Virus genome (UHGV): UHGV-0103744
Reading direction: 5' to 3' (one strand)
DNA from: a virus
Length of the DNA: 14,629 nt
The notes under the pieces are model-generated. The model had not been told where the DNA came from. It did not search any database and was given only the letters and a program-made list of their open reading frames with translations. Both the position numbers and the translations under genes were made by a program. Shown here one piece after another: positions 4,530 to 11,313 of this stretch. Each line of letters opens with the position of its first letter. Within the stretch, counting starts at the first letter, position 1.

Positions 4530-4820
4530 TTAGTGATTCAGGCCGTTACCGCGTCCGTCGAGAAAAACTTCCACGAGCAAATCACGGGTATAAGTGCGCT
4601 CGATGCCGCGATGCAGATATAGCCGTCCGCGTAAATTAGCTGATGCAGTCCAGGTACCATCTTTGTGTTTGACCAGCATTCCTGGCATGACCGCACCTCG
4701 ATTAACGGTCTGCGTTCCATAATGTTGATGAACCATAAAAACTCCTGCCCGTAAGCTGGGCTGCTGAACATATAGAGACTTCTGCGCGTATTCAGGCGGT
4801 GGATGGCCGCCGGTTGTCAT
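4530..4820 (-). CDS. Hypothetical PL-proximal protein (96 aa from the first ATG; the 136-aa ORF in the track begins at a TTG)
   Basis: GC-rich ORF occupying the first-gene position of the leftward operon (where N/cIII/kil sit in lambda) but with no recognisable similarity to N, cIII or Kil. The annotated 4940 start is a TTG; the first ATG (4818-4820) has GAGG about 10 nt upstream. The true start is uncertain. Confidence 0.4.
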
Positions 4821-4999
4821 AACTAAGTCGCCTCGTTGAAGCGACTGAGGTATGAAGTGTTGAGTTGATTTCAGCTGGTCACACCGACGTTCACGCGTCC
4901 GCTTCACCCCTCGCACTCCCCGGAGCCTGCTGAAATTCAAGCTGCGGATCTAAGCGGTCATCGCAACGGTGAATCAGGTGATTGCCGTATCGTTGTGTT

Positions 5000-5090
5000 G
5001 TTGCGATGAATTCATTTAAAACTATAGTTGTTTTATCGTCAACAACAAAAGTTGTTTTATTGGTTGTTTTAGATATAACTGGTTGTATTT
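5000..5090 (-). promoter_or_regulatory. OL/PL-like leftward promoter with repeated repressor operator half-sites
   Basis: On the - strand: TTGTTGACG (-35; + coords 5037-5042), 17-bp spacer, TAAATG (-10; 5013-5018). The spacer (aaaacaactatagtttt, 5018-5034) is 16/17 identical to the PR spacer. Further AACAAC/GTTGTT-containing repeats at 5041-5058, 5061-5070 and 5077-5090. Confidence 0.6.
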
Positions 5091-5180
5091 AGGATGGATT
5101 TATTTTGTGACTTGCATCGCATAGCGATAACCGAAGCGGGGTTGTGGTGGTTTTTTGAACGGTGTGTGATGAGGGGAGGC

Positions 5181-5208
5181 AAAAGAAAACCCGGCACGAC
5201 GGCCGGGG
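5181..5208 (-). terminator. Intrinsic terminator ending the repressor-proximal (cI + 287-aa gene) transcription unit
   Basis: On the - strand, GC-rich hairpin CCCGGC-cgtcgt-GCCGGG (5190-5207) followed by UUUUCUUUU (+ strand 5181-5189); begins 4 bp downstream of the 287-aa ORF stop. Confidence 0.7.
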
Positions 5209-5211
5209 AAA

Positions 5212-6075
5212 TCATTTCGCATCTACAATAAATAACCTGTTTATCTGGCCTTTTTTAACAGTAGCCTTTGCGGTTATAGTGAATACTGCAGATGGATCAC
5301 CTTTGGTTGATATATATGCACTAAGAGCTCTAATATACGGGTTATTCTTCTTTCCTGCAGCTGGATCGCTAATTTCAGCAGTGATTCTCTTTTTTGAGTC
5401 ATCACCATCTAAAATTATTTTAGCTGTCATATTTTGTGCATCAAATTCTGTAAGAAAAGCACGATACTCACGAAGACCGAGAACTTCATCATCATCAAGC
5501 CTATCAATTTCAGCTTTATCTCTCTCGTTAACTTTTAGAAGGCAGCCGTCAACATTTGTTGCAACACTTATCTGATCGCAAGTATTACCAATAGGTGATA
5601 CTGCCTGCCTTACAGAGGGGCGAAGCTCTACAGCCATTCGGTCAATCAAAGAGATCAACTTATCAATGGTTCCAGCATCCTTGTTTCCTAGTGCCTCTAT
5701 GGCCTTTTCAAGTGACTGCTGCAAAGCTTTCATTTCATCTTTCTTGTTAGAATTTCTCGCAAAAATATATTGTAGTATTGCGCCAAGTATAGTTGCGGCG
5801 ATCCCCGAGAACAACTGGTTCTGAGTGGCGAAGTTAAGAACTGCTTCAAGAGTAAAGCAGTTAGCTTTTGCTTCGCGTGCGTAAACCTTAACTTCCTGAT
5901 AATTAATGTATTTACTATATTTTTGTGTAACAGAGAAAGAAGCTGCTGTTGAGAGAACTTTAGAAAAACCCTTTAGGGATTCTCCTAGGCAGTTCAAATC
6001 TATTTCATGATTTAAAGCATCTTTTCCGTCATACCTAAAAGAGATTTTTATATCCTGTAAAGCGTCACAATCCAT
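5212..6075 (-). CDS. Orphan 287-aa protein in the rexAB-equivalent slot (downstream of and co-oriented with cI); one predicted hydrophobic helix; function unknown
   Basis: Long uninterrupted ORF; visibly AT-rich relative to flanking phage genes; lies between the cI stop (6142) and a strong terminator (5181-5208); hydrophobic segment [19 protein letters not shown] followed by a charged, helical-looking region. No family recognised. Confidence 0.7.
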
Positions 6076-6141
6076 AAATCGCTCTCGTCTAATTCTAATT
6101 AAATTTACTATCCCCTAAACGACTCATCAGCACAGTACTGA

Positions 6142-6831
6142 TTATCCATGTTTCCTGTACGTCTGGGGCATGCTCCCAATAACCTTACCGAAGATGAACA
6201 CCCGGTTCATCTCGTCTTTCTCGATCGGGTCCCACGGTGAGTAGCTCTTGTTATCAGAGATAACCAGCAGCTTATCCTTCATCATTTGCAGGCGCTTTAC
6301 ATGGGCGGTGTCGTCGTACAGAAACGCATAGATGCCATCACCGTCGAAAGATTTAACCGTGATATCAACGAACAGCAGATCACCTGGTTCGATCGTTCCT
6401 GACATGCTGTCACCACGCACGTTAATGATGCGGATATTTTCTGCCTTCCTACCATCGAACATGTGACGAGCATCGTCAAACGAGTACTCAACCGAGCGTA
6501 GAACTTCTACAAACTCACGGTTGATGACTCCCGGCCCGGCACTCACTTCTATATCAAGAACGTCAATCTTAAAGTATTTGGAATGGCTGACAGTTGATTG
6601 TATTGGTTGCACTGTACTGTCTGACATATTTCCAACGCCAGAAGATAACCATTCTGCGCGCACACCCAAAGCGTTCGCGATCTCCACGATTTTAGTTGTT
6701 TGGTTAGCTTTCCCTGTTTCGATTTTCTGAATAGCAGCTTGGCTAACCCCGACCAAATCCCCAAGCGCCTTTTGTGTAAGGCCTCGCGCTAATCTGGCTT
6801 CTTTAAGTCTTTCTGAGAGTGTTGTTTTCAT
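6142..6831 (-). CDS. cI: CI-type prophage repressor: N-terminal HTH (XRE family), C-terminal LexA/S24 autopeptidase domain
   Basis: HTH region LTQKALGDLVGVSQAAIQKIETG; S24 signature GDSMSGT (catalytic Ser) and downstream Lys (VKRL). Divergent from the cro-like gene across an operator-rich 104-bp region. Start taken at MKTTL (6829-6831), because the longer 251-aa ORF would begin inside the PR operator. Confidence 0.85.
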   Translation of the reverse strand: MKTTLSERLKEARLARGLTQKALGDLVGVSQAAIQKIETGKANQTTKIVEIANALGVRAEWLSSGVGNMSDSTVQPIQSTVSHSKYFKIDVLDIEVSAGPGVINREFVEVLRSVEYSFDDARHMFDGRKAENIRIINVRGDSMSGTIEPGDLLFVDITVKSFDGDGIYAFLYDDTAHVKRLQMMKDKLLVISDNKSYSPWDPIEKDEMNRVFIFGKVIGSMPQTYRKHG

Positions 6832-6935
6832 AGTCCAAATGTACAACCAAGGTTTTATTTCATCAAACGAAAATGGTTGTTGACTAAAAACAACCATAGT
6901 TTTAATCTTGATTCAAATTAACCACGGAGGTTGTT
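6832..6935 (+). promoter_or_regulatory. OR region: PR promoter, operator repeats and presumably PRM on the opposite strand
   Basis: TTGACT (-35; 6880-6885), 17-bp spacer, TAATCT (-10; 6903-6908), then GGAGG RBS before the cro-like ATG at 6936. Operator-like repeats: acaaccaaggtttt (6843-6856), inverted repeat atggttgtt / aacaaccat (6873-6881 / 6889-6897), and aaaacaaccatagtttt (6887-6903). Confidence 0.7.
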
Positions 6936-7166
6936 ATGAACCCAGCTATCAAAACAGCGATCAATATCGTTGGTTCACAAAAGAAACTGGGCGCTGCCTG
7001 CGAAGTTTCACAGCAGGCCGTCTATAAGTGGCTTCACAACAAAGCAAAGGTATCCCCTGAACATGTCGGCAGCATTGTTACGGCTACTGGTGGAGTAGTG
7101 AAGGCATACCAGATTCGCCCGGATCTTCCGAAGTTGTTTCCACACACCGAAAAGAACGCAGCTTAA
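6936..7166 (+). CDS. Cro-like HTH regulator of the YdaS type (76 aa)
   Basis: Small HTH protein (GSQKKLGAACEVSQQAVYKWLHN) transcribed divergently from cI off PR; resembles Rac YdaS-type Cro analogues from memory. Confidence 0.75.
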   Translation: MNPAIKTAINIVGSQKKLGAACEVSQQAVYKWLHNKAKVSPEHVGSIVTATGGVVKAYQIRPDLPKLFPHTEKNAA

Positions 7167-9779: not shown

Positions 9780-9815
9780 ACTATGTACATAAAAATATCA
9801 TTTTTTAATACATGT

Positions 9816-10007
9816 CTAATTATTGGACGAAATTGGTTTTTGCTTTGGTTTAGTTAGCCTAGCAATCAAGCCAGAGGCAATAATGATGATCCAAGCAATT
9901 TGATGCAATGCTACTCCAATATAAGAACCTTTATAGATAATAAAGGCATAGATCGCTAGAAACGAAATAAATATCCATAACGAAAGTTGATAAATTTTGG
10001 CGCGCAT
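9816..10007 (-). CDS. Possible small hydrophobic membrane protein (63 aa from first ATG), opposite strand, in AT-rich cargo
   Basis: Two hydrophobic stretches (LSLWIFISFLAIYAFIIY and IAWIIIIASGLIA); AT-rich context; the track start (10022) is a TTG and no convincing RBS is seen, so this may not be a real gene. Confidence 0.3.
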   Translation of the reverse strand: MRAKIYQLSLWIFISFLAIYAFIIYKGSYIGVALHQIAWIIIIASGLIARLTKPKQKPISSNN

Positions 10008-10263
10008 ATTTAATCCAATCAATCAGAAAGACGAGTAATCATAGAGGTACTATCACCCGGGTAACTATTGCTATTATGAACGGATAGGATAGAGGCTTCA
10101 ATAACATATGCATCAAGTATGATGGAATATGTAGATGAAAATGACTTGTGTCAAATTTGTGGAAATGAGTACCATGTTTCTCTGAAATTGATGTCGTTAA
10201 TGGCTAGTGATAGTGAACTTTTTTACTTTATAATTCCTTTGGTTATAACAATAAGGTAAATTT

Positions 10264-10824
10264 ATGAAGAAGATAATATTATTAGCCATGATTATTGGTT
10301 CTTTAACAGGTTGCGCTAGTGTGCCACCATTGAATTTTTCAACACCTAACGTGGGAGTTAGCCAGAAAAAAATAGATGCTGAAATTAAGTCATTAACGGT
10401 ATCACTTGCTCGTCCAGATGAGCAGAAAGGGGATATCACTGCTGGTATGGAGGCTATAACTCCAATTTGGCGTGAATCTTTGCAGGAAGCACTCGACCGA
10501 ATGACTATTTTTCGTGATAGTTCACCAAATACGGTTAGCTTAAATGTTAAAGTGTTGGCTCTTGACGTTCCTGCTTTTGGTGTTTCAATGACAACTAAAG
10601 CAATTGCAAGGTATGAAATAATCAACCGTGCGAATGGTGATATTATATATACGCAGGATATTGAGTCTACCGGCACTGTTCCAGCCAGTTACGCATTCTA
10701 CGGTATTGTTCGAGCACGCGAATCTGTTAATCGCGCGGTGCAAAACAACATAACGCAGTTCTTGCAAGCATTAGAAAGTGTTGATCTTTCTCGTCCAATG
10801 TTTCCTGTTAGGGTAGCTAAATGA
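10264..10824 (+). CDS. Predicted lipoprotein (186 aa), cargo gene 1
   Basis: Signal peptide with lipobox MKKIILLAMIIGSLTG-C; AT-rich codon usage; stop overlaps the start of the next lipoprotein gene (ATGA). No family recognised. Confidence 0.7.
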   Translation: MKKIILLAMIIGSLTGCASVPPLNFSTPNVGVSQKKIDAEIKSLTVSLARPDEQKGDITAGMEAITPIWRESLQEALDRMTIFRDSSPNTVSLNVKVLALDVPAFGVSMTTKAIARYEIINRANGDIIYTQDIESTGTVPASYAFYGIVRARESVNRAVQNNITQFLQALESVDLSRPMFPVRVAK

Positions 10825-11273
10825 AGCGATTATTCGTAATTGCTCCACTCTTAGTGTTGGTTGGATGCGCACAAAATATATCGCCAAATAGTTATTCTGT
10901 TGGCTCTGTGGGCATGGTTAATCGAACTATCGCTGGTACAGTTATTAGTGCCAGGGGGGTTGATATCAGTGGGACTTCCGCGTTAGGCGGGACTGCTGGG
11001 GCTGCCGTGGGGGCAACCGCTGGTTCTGCGCTTGGTGGGGGAGTTCGTTCTAATATCGTTGGTGCCGTTGGTGGTGCAGTCATTGGTGGTATTGCCGGGG
11101 CAGCAATCGAATCTTCAGCAACAAAACAAACAGGCATGGAATATGTTGTCGAAACTGAGAATGGGAATTTAATGACCATTGTTCAAGGCAAAGATCCGTT
11201 ATTTACTCAAGGAAGTAAGGTCCTTGTTTTATACGGAAACCCTTCTCGCATAATAACAGACCCGCGTCACTAA
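10821..11273 (+). CDS. Predicted glycine-zipper lipoprotein (150 aa; SlyB/Pcp-like architecture), cargo gene 2
   Basis: Lipobox MKRLFVIAPLLVLVG-C; long Gly/Ala-rich zipper GTSALGGTAGAAVGATAGSALGGGVRSNIVGAVGGAVIGGIAGAAI typical of Gly-zipper outer-membrane lipoproteins; translationally coupled to the upstream gene. Confidence 0.7.
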   Translation: MKRLFVIAPLLVLVGCAQNISPNSYSVGSVGMVNRTIAGTVISARGVDISGTSALGGTAGAAVGATAGSALGGGVRSNIVGAVGGAVIGGIAGAAIESSATKQTGMEYVVETENGNLMTIVQGKDPLFTQGSKVLVLYGNPSRIITDPRH

Positions 11274-11313
11274 CATACCTTTTGATTTTGTAAAATCAAT
11301 TCGTAATAATAAA

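What the first reader, a model, noticed from the sequence alone, without database searches (positions are those of the whole stretch)
5181..6141. AT-rich 287-aa orphan gene in the repressor-linked (rexAB-equivalent) slot: candidate lysogen-expressed exclusion or defence gene
A 287-aa ORF (5212-6075, - strand) starts 66 bp downstream of the cI stop in the same orientation and is closed by a strong intrinsic terminator (5181-5208). This is the architecture of lambda cI-rexA-rexB: genes transcribed with the repressor in the lysogen. The gene is visibly AT-rich compared with the adjacent red and repressor genes, suggesting separate acquisition. The protein has one hydrophobic helix ([19 protein letters not shown]) followed by a charged, helical-looking region, and I recognise no family. 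The slot between OL and cI is a known hotspot for superinfection-exclusion and abortive-infection cargo in lambdoid phages; that this protein is one is inference from location only.
Basis: partly seen in the sequence, partly recalled or inferred. Interest (0 to 1): 0.8.

Follow-up and report, generated by a model that had tools for sequence, protein, structure and literature searches.

The report
Repressor-linked prophage cargo gene, DUF7946/DUF7947
A 287-residue gene wedged between a prophage's repressor gene and its left operator is a swappable cassette in a known phage-defence hotspot; it belongs to an uncharacterised family also found in phage phi80, and it is probably an untested anti-phage protein made by the lysogen.

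Summary
A 287-aa ORF (5212-6075, minus strand) starts 66 bp after the cI stop and ends at a GC-rich terminator. It lies between cI and OL and is AT-rich (38% GC against 47-53% in its neighbours).

"Orphan" is wrong. The protein is Pfam DUF7946+DUF7947 and PHROG 5147, with about 500 clusters at 50% identity. It is 62% identical to phage phi80 gene 40A, which sits in the same slot.

In 71 of 78 IMG/VR loci the nearest upstream same-strand gene is a repressor, and these fall into 23 repressor clusters. Beside an identical cI protein (about 1,520 E. coli genomes), the stretch 5208-6141 is a replaceable cassette. Alternatives include HipAD/DS-6 (experimentally validated), the candidates PDC-M11, PDC-M63 and PDC-S42, and empty sites.

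The protein, one residue off WP_000340376.1, is listed as a "Predicted novel defense gene" by DefensePredictor (Science 2026) but was not screened there. AlphaFold (pLDDT 91) gives an N-terminal alpha/beta module, a helical region with one marginally hydrophobic helix, and a C-terminal OB-fold. It is unrelated to RexA.

The best reading is a lysogen-expressed single-protein defence gene. Its function and mechanism are untested.

The parts
6142..6831 (-). cI-type repressor gene (HTH_3 + Peptidase_S24). The mechanical ORF runs on to the ATG at 6897, but that ATG lies inside the OR palindrome. The protein is identical to WP_000858975.1 as annotated in related prophages.
6873..6905 (.). OR operator palindrome and repeats (ATGGTTGTTGACTAAAAACAACCAT and neighbouring sequence) between cI and the divergent cro-like gene (6936-7166, plus strand).
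5208..6141 (-). Replaceable cargo cassette made of the 66-nt leader plus the gene. Homology to prophages with the same cI but other cargo stops at 5207 on one side and resumes at 6142/6143 on the other.
   Evidence: alternative cargoes
6076..6141 (-). 66-nt leader between the cI stop and the cargo start. The scan found no terminator and no consensus promoter on this strand here, so read-through from the cI transcript is expected. That expectation is inferred, not shown.
5212..6075 (-). 287-aa DUF7946/DUF7947 protein gene. It differs by one residue (F13 instead of L13) from WP_000340376.1. dN/dS against the Klebsiella copy is 0.06.
5830..6051 (-). N-terminal alpha/beta module (aa 9-82: strand 9-16, helix 27-50, strands 62-66 and 75-82) with the conserved RYDG-DA-H...LG-SL-G motif. 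The module from aa 8 to about aa 106 is shared with the PDC-S42/LAPAL family.
5758..5814 (-). Hydrophobic helix, aa 88-106 ([19 protein letters not shown]), followed by a K/R cluster. It is only marginally hydrophobic, and the aligned helix carries charged residues in 60 of 116 relatives.
5581..5757 (-). Helical region, aa 107-165 (helices 112-128, 134-150 and 152-158), ending in the conserved P161-x-G163 linker.
5215..5580 (-). C-terminal OB-fold-like beta-barrel, aa 166-287 (DUF7947), with conserved D237-P238 and Y247.
5180..5207 (-). Intrinsic terminator (CCCGGC-CGTCGT-GCCGGG followed by UUUUCUUUU). It is conserved as backbone in all same-cI prophages whatever the cargo.
5016..5092 (.). OL-type operator repeats, inverted copies of the OR sites (19 nt at 95% complementarity, plus two shorter matches), upstream of the leftward kil-gam-bet-exo genes.

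Best explanation
The gene is a mobile cargo cassette in the immunity operon of a lambdoid prophage. The most likely arrangement is transcription from the repressor-maintenance promoter through cI, across the 66-nt leader and into the gene, ending at the shared terminator just before OL. The protein would then be made continuously in the lysogen.

It belongs to the uncharacterised DUF7946/DUF7947 family, whose classical member is phage phi80 gene 40A. Its most likely role is single-protein anti-phage defence (abortive infection or exclusion of superinfecting phages).

The proposed mechanism is inferred, not shown. The variable C-terminal OB-fold barrel would act as the specificity or sensor domain, binding a phage-made ligand such as ssDNA, a replication intermediate or a phage protein. 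The N-terminal alpha/beta module plus helical region is the part shared with the PDC-S42/LAPAL family that occupies the same slot. It would act as the effector, possibly by inserting its marginally hydrophobic helix into the inner membrane, giving a Rex-like outcome.

Confidence by step:
- Gene, family and cassette architecture: shown.
- Co-transcription with cI: about 0.85.
- Defence function: about 0.65.
- Sensor/effector and membrane mechanism: about 0.3.
For: - The gene is real and under selection: dN/dS is 0.06 against the Klebsiella copy, and the family has 504 clusters with one uniform architecture of about 280 aa.
- The slot is confirmed: the gene lies between cI and OL with a shared terminator. 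phi80 has the same order, cI, then 40A, then OL/pL/N.
- Repressor linkage is widespread. It holds in Klebsiella, Morganella (four prophages), Vitreoscilla, Neisseria, Erwinia and Enterobacter, with unrelated repressor types. In IMG/VR it holds at 71 of 78 loci, spanning 23 repressor clusters.
- The hotspot is demonstrated. An identical cI protein occurs in about 1,520 E. coli genomes, but only 77 carry this cargo. Alternatives in the same slot are HipAD/DS-6 (validated; a kinase-dead mutant loses defence), PDC-M11, PDC-M63, PDC-S42 and empty sites.
- There is an independent prediction: WP_000340376.1 is listed as a 'Predicted novel defense gene' with mean log-odds of 6.3 and 7.4.
- There is remote homology to a defence candidate: 36 of 116 family members hit PDC-S42, best E 3e-8. 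A profile comparison with the LAPAL/PDC-S42 protein gives 86% probability over aa 8-106 only.
- phi80 lysogens do not plate T4 and lower P1 titres 10-fold, and that paper does not identify the responsible gene.
- The structure has no enzyme-like fold and ends in an OB barrel.
- Published precedent: Owen et al. 2021 describe the cI-n region as a mosaic hotspot holding rexAB and bstA.
Against: - No experiment exists for any member of this family, and DefensePredictor did not screen it. That tool's reported precision is only about 45% at its lenient cut-off.
- Seven of 78 IMG/VR loci and several genomic copies are not next to a repressor: Serratia, Rahnella, a Burkholderiaceae MAG, a Helicobacter prophage and a JGI contig.
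- The helix at aa 88-106 is only marginally hydrophobic (simple Hessa-scale sum about +1.6 kcal/mol), and 60 of 116 relatives have charged residues there, so a membrane role is unproven.
- OB folds bind many kinds of ligand, so the sensor role is a guess.
- Transcription in the lysogen was not measured.
- The phi80 T4 phenotype has not been mapped to gene 40A.
Confidence: 0.65

Rival explanations
1. It is a membrane-anchored superinfection-exclusion protein that blocks genome entry, in the manner of P22 SieA or HK97 gp15. The helix at aa 88-106 would be a true transmembrane anchor, and the infected cell would survive instead of dying.
For: - The segment has a Kyte-Doolittle value of 1.85 and no charged residues in 56 of 116 relatives.
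- A K/R cluster follows it in 114 of 116 relatives, which looks like the positive-inside pattern of membrane proteins.
- The gene occupies a lysogen-expressed slot.
- phi80 lysogens fail to plate T4 at all.
Against: - There is no signal peptide, and the charge pattern would require export of an 87-residue N-terminal domain.
- Hydrophobicity is marginal, and about half of the family has an amphipathic, charged helix at this position.
- AlphaFold predicts this helix as the first of four consecutive helices of about 7-22 residues, with pLDDT above 90.
Confidence: 0.15
2. It is an accessory regulator of the prophage's own life cycle. The OB-fold would bind DNA or ssDNA and so modulate induction, the lysis-lysogeny switch or replication. 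From general knowledge, lambda RexA is also reported to influence the bistable switch.
For: - The gene is tightly linked to repressors of many immunity types.
Against: - Prophages with the identical cI and identical flanks lack the gene or carry unrelated cargo, so it is dispensable for that immunity system.
- The gene moves between unrelated repressor families and also occurs away from repressors.
- Its GC content marks it as foreign to the backbone.
Confidence: 0.08
3. It is a lysogenic-conversion or host-fitness factor unrelated to phages, such as an envelope, stress or virulence function, or an addiction-type toxin that stabilises the prophage.
For: - Cargo genes in expressed prophage slots are not always defence genes.
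- bstA, which sits in the equivalent slot, was first linked to virulence phenotypes.
- One strain carries an IS1 insertion in the gene, which could reflect a fitness cost.
Against: - There is no partner antitoxin gene. In the window the gene stands alone between cI and the terminator.
- Most sampled neighbouring cargoes in this slot are defence systems or candidates.
- The only library hits beyond the two Pfam DUFs and the unannotated PHROG family are weak partial matches to the defence candidate PDC-S42 and its NCBIfam equivalent, LAPAL_fam.
Confidence: 0.1

Closest known systems
Phage phi80 gene 40A (PHI80_46, AFV29182.1)
   Same: It is 62% identical over the full length. It has the same Pfam architecture and the same position: cI, then 40A, then the OL/pL operators, then N. 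phi80 lysogens show unexplained resistance to T4 and interference with P1.
   Different: The cI, operators and phage backbone are all different. 40A has no assigned function. Its GenBank note 'acetate kinase superfamily domain' was not reproduced for the window homologue, where Pfam finds only DUF7946 and DUF7947. 40A itself was not scanned separately. The 1988 record splits the gene into 40A and 40B.
Lambda RexA/RexB
   Same: It occupies the same slot between cI and OL, in the same orientation as cI, closed by a terminator before OL. The size is similar to RexA (287 against 279 aa). The expected logic is also the same: a lysogen-expressed protein acting against superinfecting phages.
   Different: There is no homology (hhalign probability 0.2%). 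It is one gene instead of two, and there is no partner like the multi-pass membrane protein RexB. The fold differs, with an OB barrel at the C-terminus.
BstA (Salmonella prophage BTP1)
   Same: It is a single defence gene directly downstream of the prophage repressor, with its own Rho-independent terminator. That linkage is conserved across diverse prophages.
   Different: Pfam finds no other domain in this protein, including KilA-N, and there is no PADLOC BstA hit. No self-immunity (aba-like) element has been shown here.
PADLOC candidate PDC-S42, the same family as NCBIfam 'LAPAL motif-containing putative phage structural protein' (e.g. WP_000338655.1)
   Same: It shares the N-terminal module of about 100 residues (hhalign 86% probability over aa 8-106; 36 of 116 family members hit the PDC-S42 model). 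It has a similar length and occupies the identical slot beside the identical cI protein. It is also a DefensePredictor 'predicted novel defense gene'.
   Different: The C-terminal halves are unrelated, and PDC-S42 has no DUF7947 OB barrel. For the window protein the match is weak and partial (E 5e-4). PDC-S42 is itself only a candidate, not a validated system.
HipAD / DS-6 (HipA-like kinase + DUF3037)
   Same: It is an alternative cassette in exactly the same position next to the same cI and the same terminator. It has been experimentally validated as anti-phage.
   Different: The proteins are unrelated. It is a two-gene, kinase-based, toxin-antitoxin-like system.

Membership tests
Pfam DUF7946 + DUF7947 (PHROG 5147) | Scores above the Pfam gathering thresholds for both domains, in the order DUF7946 then DUF7947, in a protein of about 280 aa. 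| tested here: met
   DUF7946 scores 185.8 bits (cut-off 27) over aa 11-191. DUF7947 scores 67.1 bits (cut-off 27) over aa 201-287. phrog_5147 matches positions 1-287 of 287 with E 6e-178.
Lambda RexAB-type exclusion system | Sequence or profile homology to RexA. | tested here: not met
   hhalign of the 116-sequence family profile against lambda RexA gives probability 0.2%. There is no Pfam or PADLOC Rex hit.
Lambda RexAB-type exclusion system | A two-gene unit with a multi-pass membrane partner (RexB). | tested here: not met
   Only one ORF lies between the cI stop and the terminator.
Lambda RexAB-type exclusion system | Location between cI and OL, same strand as cI, terminated before OL. | tested here: met
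Lambda RexAB-type exclusion system | Expression in the lysogen from the repressor promoters, and abortive exclusion of superinfecting phage. | not testable with these tools
   This needs lysogen RNA-seq and plaque or one-step-growth assays.
BstA family | N-terminal KilA-N-like DNA-binding domain and BstA sequence homology (the domain is recalled from general knowledge of the BstA family). | tested here: not met
   No such Pfam or PADLOC hit was found.
BstA family | Position downstream of the prophage repressor with its own terminator. | tested here: met
PADLOC PDC-S42 / NCBIfam LAPAL_fam | Full-length match to the family model. | tested here: not met
   Only aa 10-127 match PDLC05015 (E 5e-4), and only aa 11-121 match NF053583 (25.5 bits against a cut-off of 60). 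A true member scores E 3e-86 over its full length.
PADLOC PDC-S42 / NCBIfam LAPAL_fam | Shared N-terminal module (a superfamily-level relationship). | tested here: met
   36 of 116 relatives hit PDC-S42, best E 3.2e-8. hhalign gives 85.6% probability, E 5.6e-6, over aa 8-106.
OB-fold superfamily (C-terminal domain) | A five-stranded beta-barrel that superimposes on known OB folds. | tested here: met
Single-pass membrane superinfection-exclusion proteins (SieA or HK97 gp15 type) | A genuine transmembrane anchor. | tested here: inconclusive
   The Kyte-Doolittle 19-residue window peaks at 1.85 and the simple Hessa-scale sum is about +1.6 kcal/mol. The flanking K/R bias fits a membrane protein, but 60 of 116 relatives carry 1-6 charged residues in the aligned helix.
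Experimentally validated anti-phage defence systems | Reduced plating efficiency or plaque size when the gene is expressed. | not testable with these tools
   The protein is listed only as predicted in DefensePredictor Tables S5 and S10. It is absent from Tables S6, S7 and S8, which hold the screened and validated systems.

The most novel reading that the evidence does not exclude
DUF7946/DUF7947 would be a self-contained, enzyme-free abortive-infection protein. Its N-terminal module is shared with PDC-S42/LAPAL proteins, which carry different C-termini. That module would be a previously unrecognised effector, for example a helix that is buried in the resting protein and inserts into the membrane on activation. 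The OB-fold would be the phage sensor. The phi80 orthologue 40A would then be the long-unassigned cause of T4 exclusion and P1 interference in phi80 lysogens.
Probability: 0.25. Interest if true: 0.7.

Novelty: new member of a known kind. Interest (0 to 1): 0.5.

Why it matters
If confirmed, this would add a new single-protein defence family with no recognisable enzymatic or known effector domain to the repressor-linked hotspot of lambdoid prophages. It could also explain a published but unmapped phenotype of the classical phage phi80: T4 resistance and P1 interference in lysogens.

The sharply bounded cassette (5208-6141) sits between a fixed cI stop and a fixed terminator. That gives a ready-made natural library of alternative cargoes in isogenic backbones for discovering defence genes.

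The modular pattern of a constant N-terminal module with swapped C-termini (an OB barrel here, a different domain in PDC-S42) offers a direct way to separate sensor from effector.

The idea that this slot holds defence cargo is already established, and this protein has already been flagged by a machine-learning predictor. The advance would therefore be one of mechanism, not of concept.

Tried and rejected
- **RexA homology.** hhalign probability was 0.2%, so this was rejected.
- **Solved-structure relatives by sequence.** Nothing significant was found with either family profile.
- **'Acetate kinase superfamily' note on phi80 40A.** It was not reproduced for the window homologue, where Pfam finds only DUF7946 and DUF7947. 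40A itself was not scanned separately.
- **Obligate transmembrane anchor.** Family-wide analysis weakened this idea.
- **Pfam scans of the three protein segments separately.** They gave nothing beyond the two DUFs.
- **Literature searches.** Searches for DUF7946, DUF7947, PDC-S42, phrog_5147, WP_000340376 in main texts and phi80 '40A' returned nothing. The phi80 genome paper (Rotman 2012) and Brenes & Laub 2025 are not held. A search on 'LAPAL' returned only irrelevant papers.
- **The search for related loci.** It failed with the deep alignment. The genome-contig scan gave only 5 loci.
- **Rfam and tRNA scans.** They found nothing relevant.
- **Internal promoter.** No consensus promoter was found on the gene's strand in the leader or in the 3' end of cI. 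This does not exclude a weak one.

Full report

Yes. The minus-strand ORF at 5212-6075 encodes 287 aa. Upstream on the same strand lies a repressor with HTH_3 and Peptidase_S24 domains (6142-6897 as a mechanical ORF). Its ATG at 6897 sits inside the OR palindrome, and PGAP calls a 229-aa protein from 6831.

The gap between the cI stop and the ORF start is 66 bp. The terminator has a stem of six G-C pairs at 5190-5207 followed by a U-run. Its folding energy is -12.1 kcal/mol, z = -2.36.

Operator-like repeats at 5016-5092 are inverted copies of the OR sites at 6873-6905 (19 nt at 95% complementarity, plus two further matches). The gene therefore lies between cI and OL, the position of rexAB in lambda.

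The gene is 38.3% GC (GC3 29.5%), against 47.1% (GC3 51.7%) for cI and 52.7% (GC3 59.2%) for bet. The thrW claim cannot be checked because the window has no tRNA gene.

**2. It is not an orphan.**

- Pfam finds DUF7946 (aa 11-191, E 1e-54) and DUF7947 (aa 201-287, E 1.4e-18).
- PHROG 5147 matches end to end.
- Phage phi80 gene 40A is 62% identical and lies in the same place: cI, then 40A, then the OL/pL operators, then N.
- Close homologues occur in Klebsiella, Enterobacter, Serratia, Proteus, Morganella, Neisseria and Vitreoscilla.
- A profile search of 1.84 billion representative proteins found 504 clusters, almost all 270-300 aa with the same architecture and no fused enzyme domains.
- dN/dS between the E. 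coli and Klebsiella copies is 0.06, so this is a functional protein-coding gene.

**3. Linkage to repressors.**

Genomic look-ups show the gene directly downstream of a repressor that is divergent from a cro-like gene. This holds in the following, with different repressor families and different neighbouring modules:
- Vitreoscilla.
- Four different Morganella prophages.
- Neisseria.
- A Rac-like Klebsiella prophage, whose repressor is a 131-aa protein without an S24 domain.
- Erwinia.
- An Enterobacter MAG.

In 78 IMG/VR loci, the nearest upstream same-strand ORF is a repressor in 71. Sixty of those loci have an S24-plus-HTH repressor and 11 have a short CI-type HTH repressor. Together they fall into 23 repressor clusters at 80% identity. 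This sample is biased towards relatives of at least 40% identity.

There are exceptions:
- Serratia, where the gene lies near an Abi_2 gene and AlpA.
- Rahnella, with DinI-like genes and an IS3 element nearby.
- A Burkholderiaceae MAG, next to HigA.
- A Helicobacter prophage.
- A JGI contig beside a transposase.
- A few IMG/VR loci beside structural genes.

**4. The slot is a cassette hotspot, shown directly.**

The identical cI protein (WP_000858975.1) occurs in about 1,520 complete E. coli genomes, but only 77 of them carry this gene. BLASTN against prophages with the same cI shows homology ending at window 5207 and resuming at 6142/6143. The variable unit is therefore 5208-6141, set between a fixed cI stop and a fixed terminator.

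Other occupants of the same slot:

| Cargo | Status |
|---|---|
| HipA-like kinase + DUF3037 (PDC-M66) | Exactly the proteins validated as DS-6/HipAD; a kinase mutant loses defence |
| PDC-M11 A/B | PADLOC candidate |
| PDC-M63 A/B | PADLOC candidate |
| 313-aa 'LAPAL motif' protein | Full-length PDC-S42 |
| Two small hypothetical proteins | Unknown |
| Empty site | None |
| IS3 element | Insertion sequence |

The Klebsiella copy carries the last 30 nt or so of the E. coli-type cI together with the leader, gene and terminator. This looks like a relic of transfer of the cassette as a unit. The same cI-plus-gene module also sits in a prophage at icd.

Owen et al. 2021 already describe the cI-n interval as a mosaic hotspot holding rexAB and bstA. 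The hotspot idea is therefore known, and this locus is a particularly clean example of it.

**5. Published status of this protein.**

The window protein differs by one residue (F13 for L13) from WP_000340376.1. That accession appears in DefensePredictor (Science 2026, PMC13092281):
- Table S5 (69 E. coli strains): mean log-odds 6.28.
- Table S10 (3,000 strains): mean log-odds 7.45.

In both it is labelled 'Predicted novel defense gene'. It is absent from Tables S6, S7 and S8, which list the units screened, the plaque counts and the validated systems. It is therefore predicted but untested.

Rotman et al. 2010 (PMC2885432) report that phi80 lysogens, unlike lambda lysogens, do not plate T4 and lower P1 titres 10-fold. 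The responsible gene is not named there. Gene 40A, the only gene annotated between cI and OL in phi80, is a natural candidate. That link is my inference.

**6. Structure.**

With a 116-sequence alignment, AlphaFold2 gives pLDDT 91.2 and pTM 0.74. The model contains:
- An N-terminal alpha/beta module: strand 9-16, helix 27-50, strands 62-66 and 75-82.
- Helices at 87-108, 112-128, 134-150 and 152-158.
- A beta-barrel from aa 168 to 286.

Residues conserved across the whole family are G17, S33, G36, P161, G163, D237, P238 and Y247. This is not an obvious catalytic set.

The hydrophobic helix (aa 88-106) is followed by a K/R cluster in 114 of 116 relatives. However, it is only marginally hydrophobic, and it carries 1-6 charged residues in 60 of 116 relatives. 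An obligate transmembrane anchor is therefore doubtful. A core helix that is buried, or that inserts only under some conditions, is equally possible.

**7. Remote relationship.**

Thirty-six of 116 family members hit PADLOC PDC-S42, best E 3e-8. The family profile aligns with the LAPAL/PDC-S42 protein over aa 8-106 only (86% probability). Two families in the same slot thus share an N-terminal module and differ in their C-termini. This pattern suggests a constant effector joined to a variable sensor, or the reverse.

**8. Interpretation.**

- **Shown:** the gene, the family, purifying selection, the cassette boundaries, the linkage to repressors, the hotspot containing a validated defence system, and the OB-fold.
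- **Inferred:** co-transcription with cI (there is no terminator or consensus promoter in the leader), the anti-phage function, and the sensor/effector mechanism.

Rival readings are an entry-blocking membrane protein, a regulator of the prophage's own cycle, and a phage-independent conversion factor. Each is less well supported, for the reasons given under the rivals. Overall this is a new, untested family filling a known role, so interest is moderate.

Noticed in passing
window 9780-11300: A second AT-rich stretch (GC 0.32-0.40) lies between the replication genes and the NinB-like gene. It holds two lipoprotein-like ORFs (10264-10824 and 10821-11273, both with a lipobox-type signal peptide ending in Cys) and a small membrane ORF on the minus strand (9816-10022). 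It is probably another cargo gene cluster.
   Followed up: no
L026 (E. coli VG1046-3E9), equivalent to window 5988-5996: An IS1 element is inserted in the DUF7946 gene about 26 codons from its start, with a 9-bp overlap at the junction. The flanks are otherwise 99.7-99.9% identical to the window.
   Followed up: partly
L015 5925-6000 (Klebsiella Rac-like prophage), matching window 6171-6076: The Klebsiella copy keeps the last 30 nt or so of the E. coli-type cI gene and the leader upstream of the cargo gene, although its own repressor is an unrelated 131-aa protein. This looks like a relic of the cassette's previous neighbourhood.
   Followed up: partly
L037 1985-2926 (E. coli GMM060): NCBI names WP_000338655.1 a 'LAPAL motif-containing putative phage structural protein'. 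However, it sits in the cI-OL slot, matches PADLOC PDC-S42 over its full length, and is a DefensePredictor predicted defence gene. The 'structural protein' name is probably wrong.
   Followed up: partly
L027 3188-3933 (Erwinia sp. CGal63): Here the slot between cI and the DUF7946 gene also holds a 177-aa protein with a Tlde1 domain (a domain named after a type VI secretion effector), followed by a 71-aa hydrophobic ORF. They may be a toxin/immunity pair inside a prophage immunity operon.
   Followed up: no
L004 7661-9274 (Vitreoscilla sp. C1) and L013 4019-4564 (Neisseria): Directly downstream of the DUF7946 gene lie a 537-aa SIR2_2 protein (PADLOC PDC-S25, E 2e-142) in Vitreoscilla and a HigB/HigA pair in Neisseria. 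The cargo in this slot can therefore be stacked.
   Followed up: partly
window 6831-6897: The longest cI ORF starts at an ATG inside the OR palindrome (ATGGTTGTT...AACAACCAT). The real start is probably M23 at 6831, as PGAP annotates in related genomes.
   Followed up: partly
IMG/VR loci L040-L065: Thirty-three loci carry a nearly identical DUF7946 gene downstream of a repressor whose S24 C-terminal half matches the window cI but whose HTH N-terminal half differs. The same cassette therefore sits behind a hybrid repressor of a different immunity type.
   Followed up: no
L003 (X13065, phi80 early region, 1988) compared with L001 (JX871397): The old record splits the gene into 40A (209 aa) and an in-frame 40B (95 aa), whereas the 2012 genome has one 288-aa ORF. 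The difference is probably a sequencing frameshift in the old record.
   Followed up: no
window 4737-5015: No N-like antiterminator ORF is evident between the OL repeats and kil. The 136-aa mechanical ORF at 4530-4940 matches Kil only over its last 77 residues.
   Followed up: no
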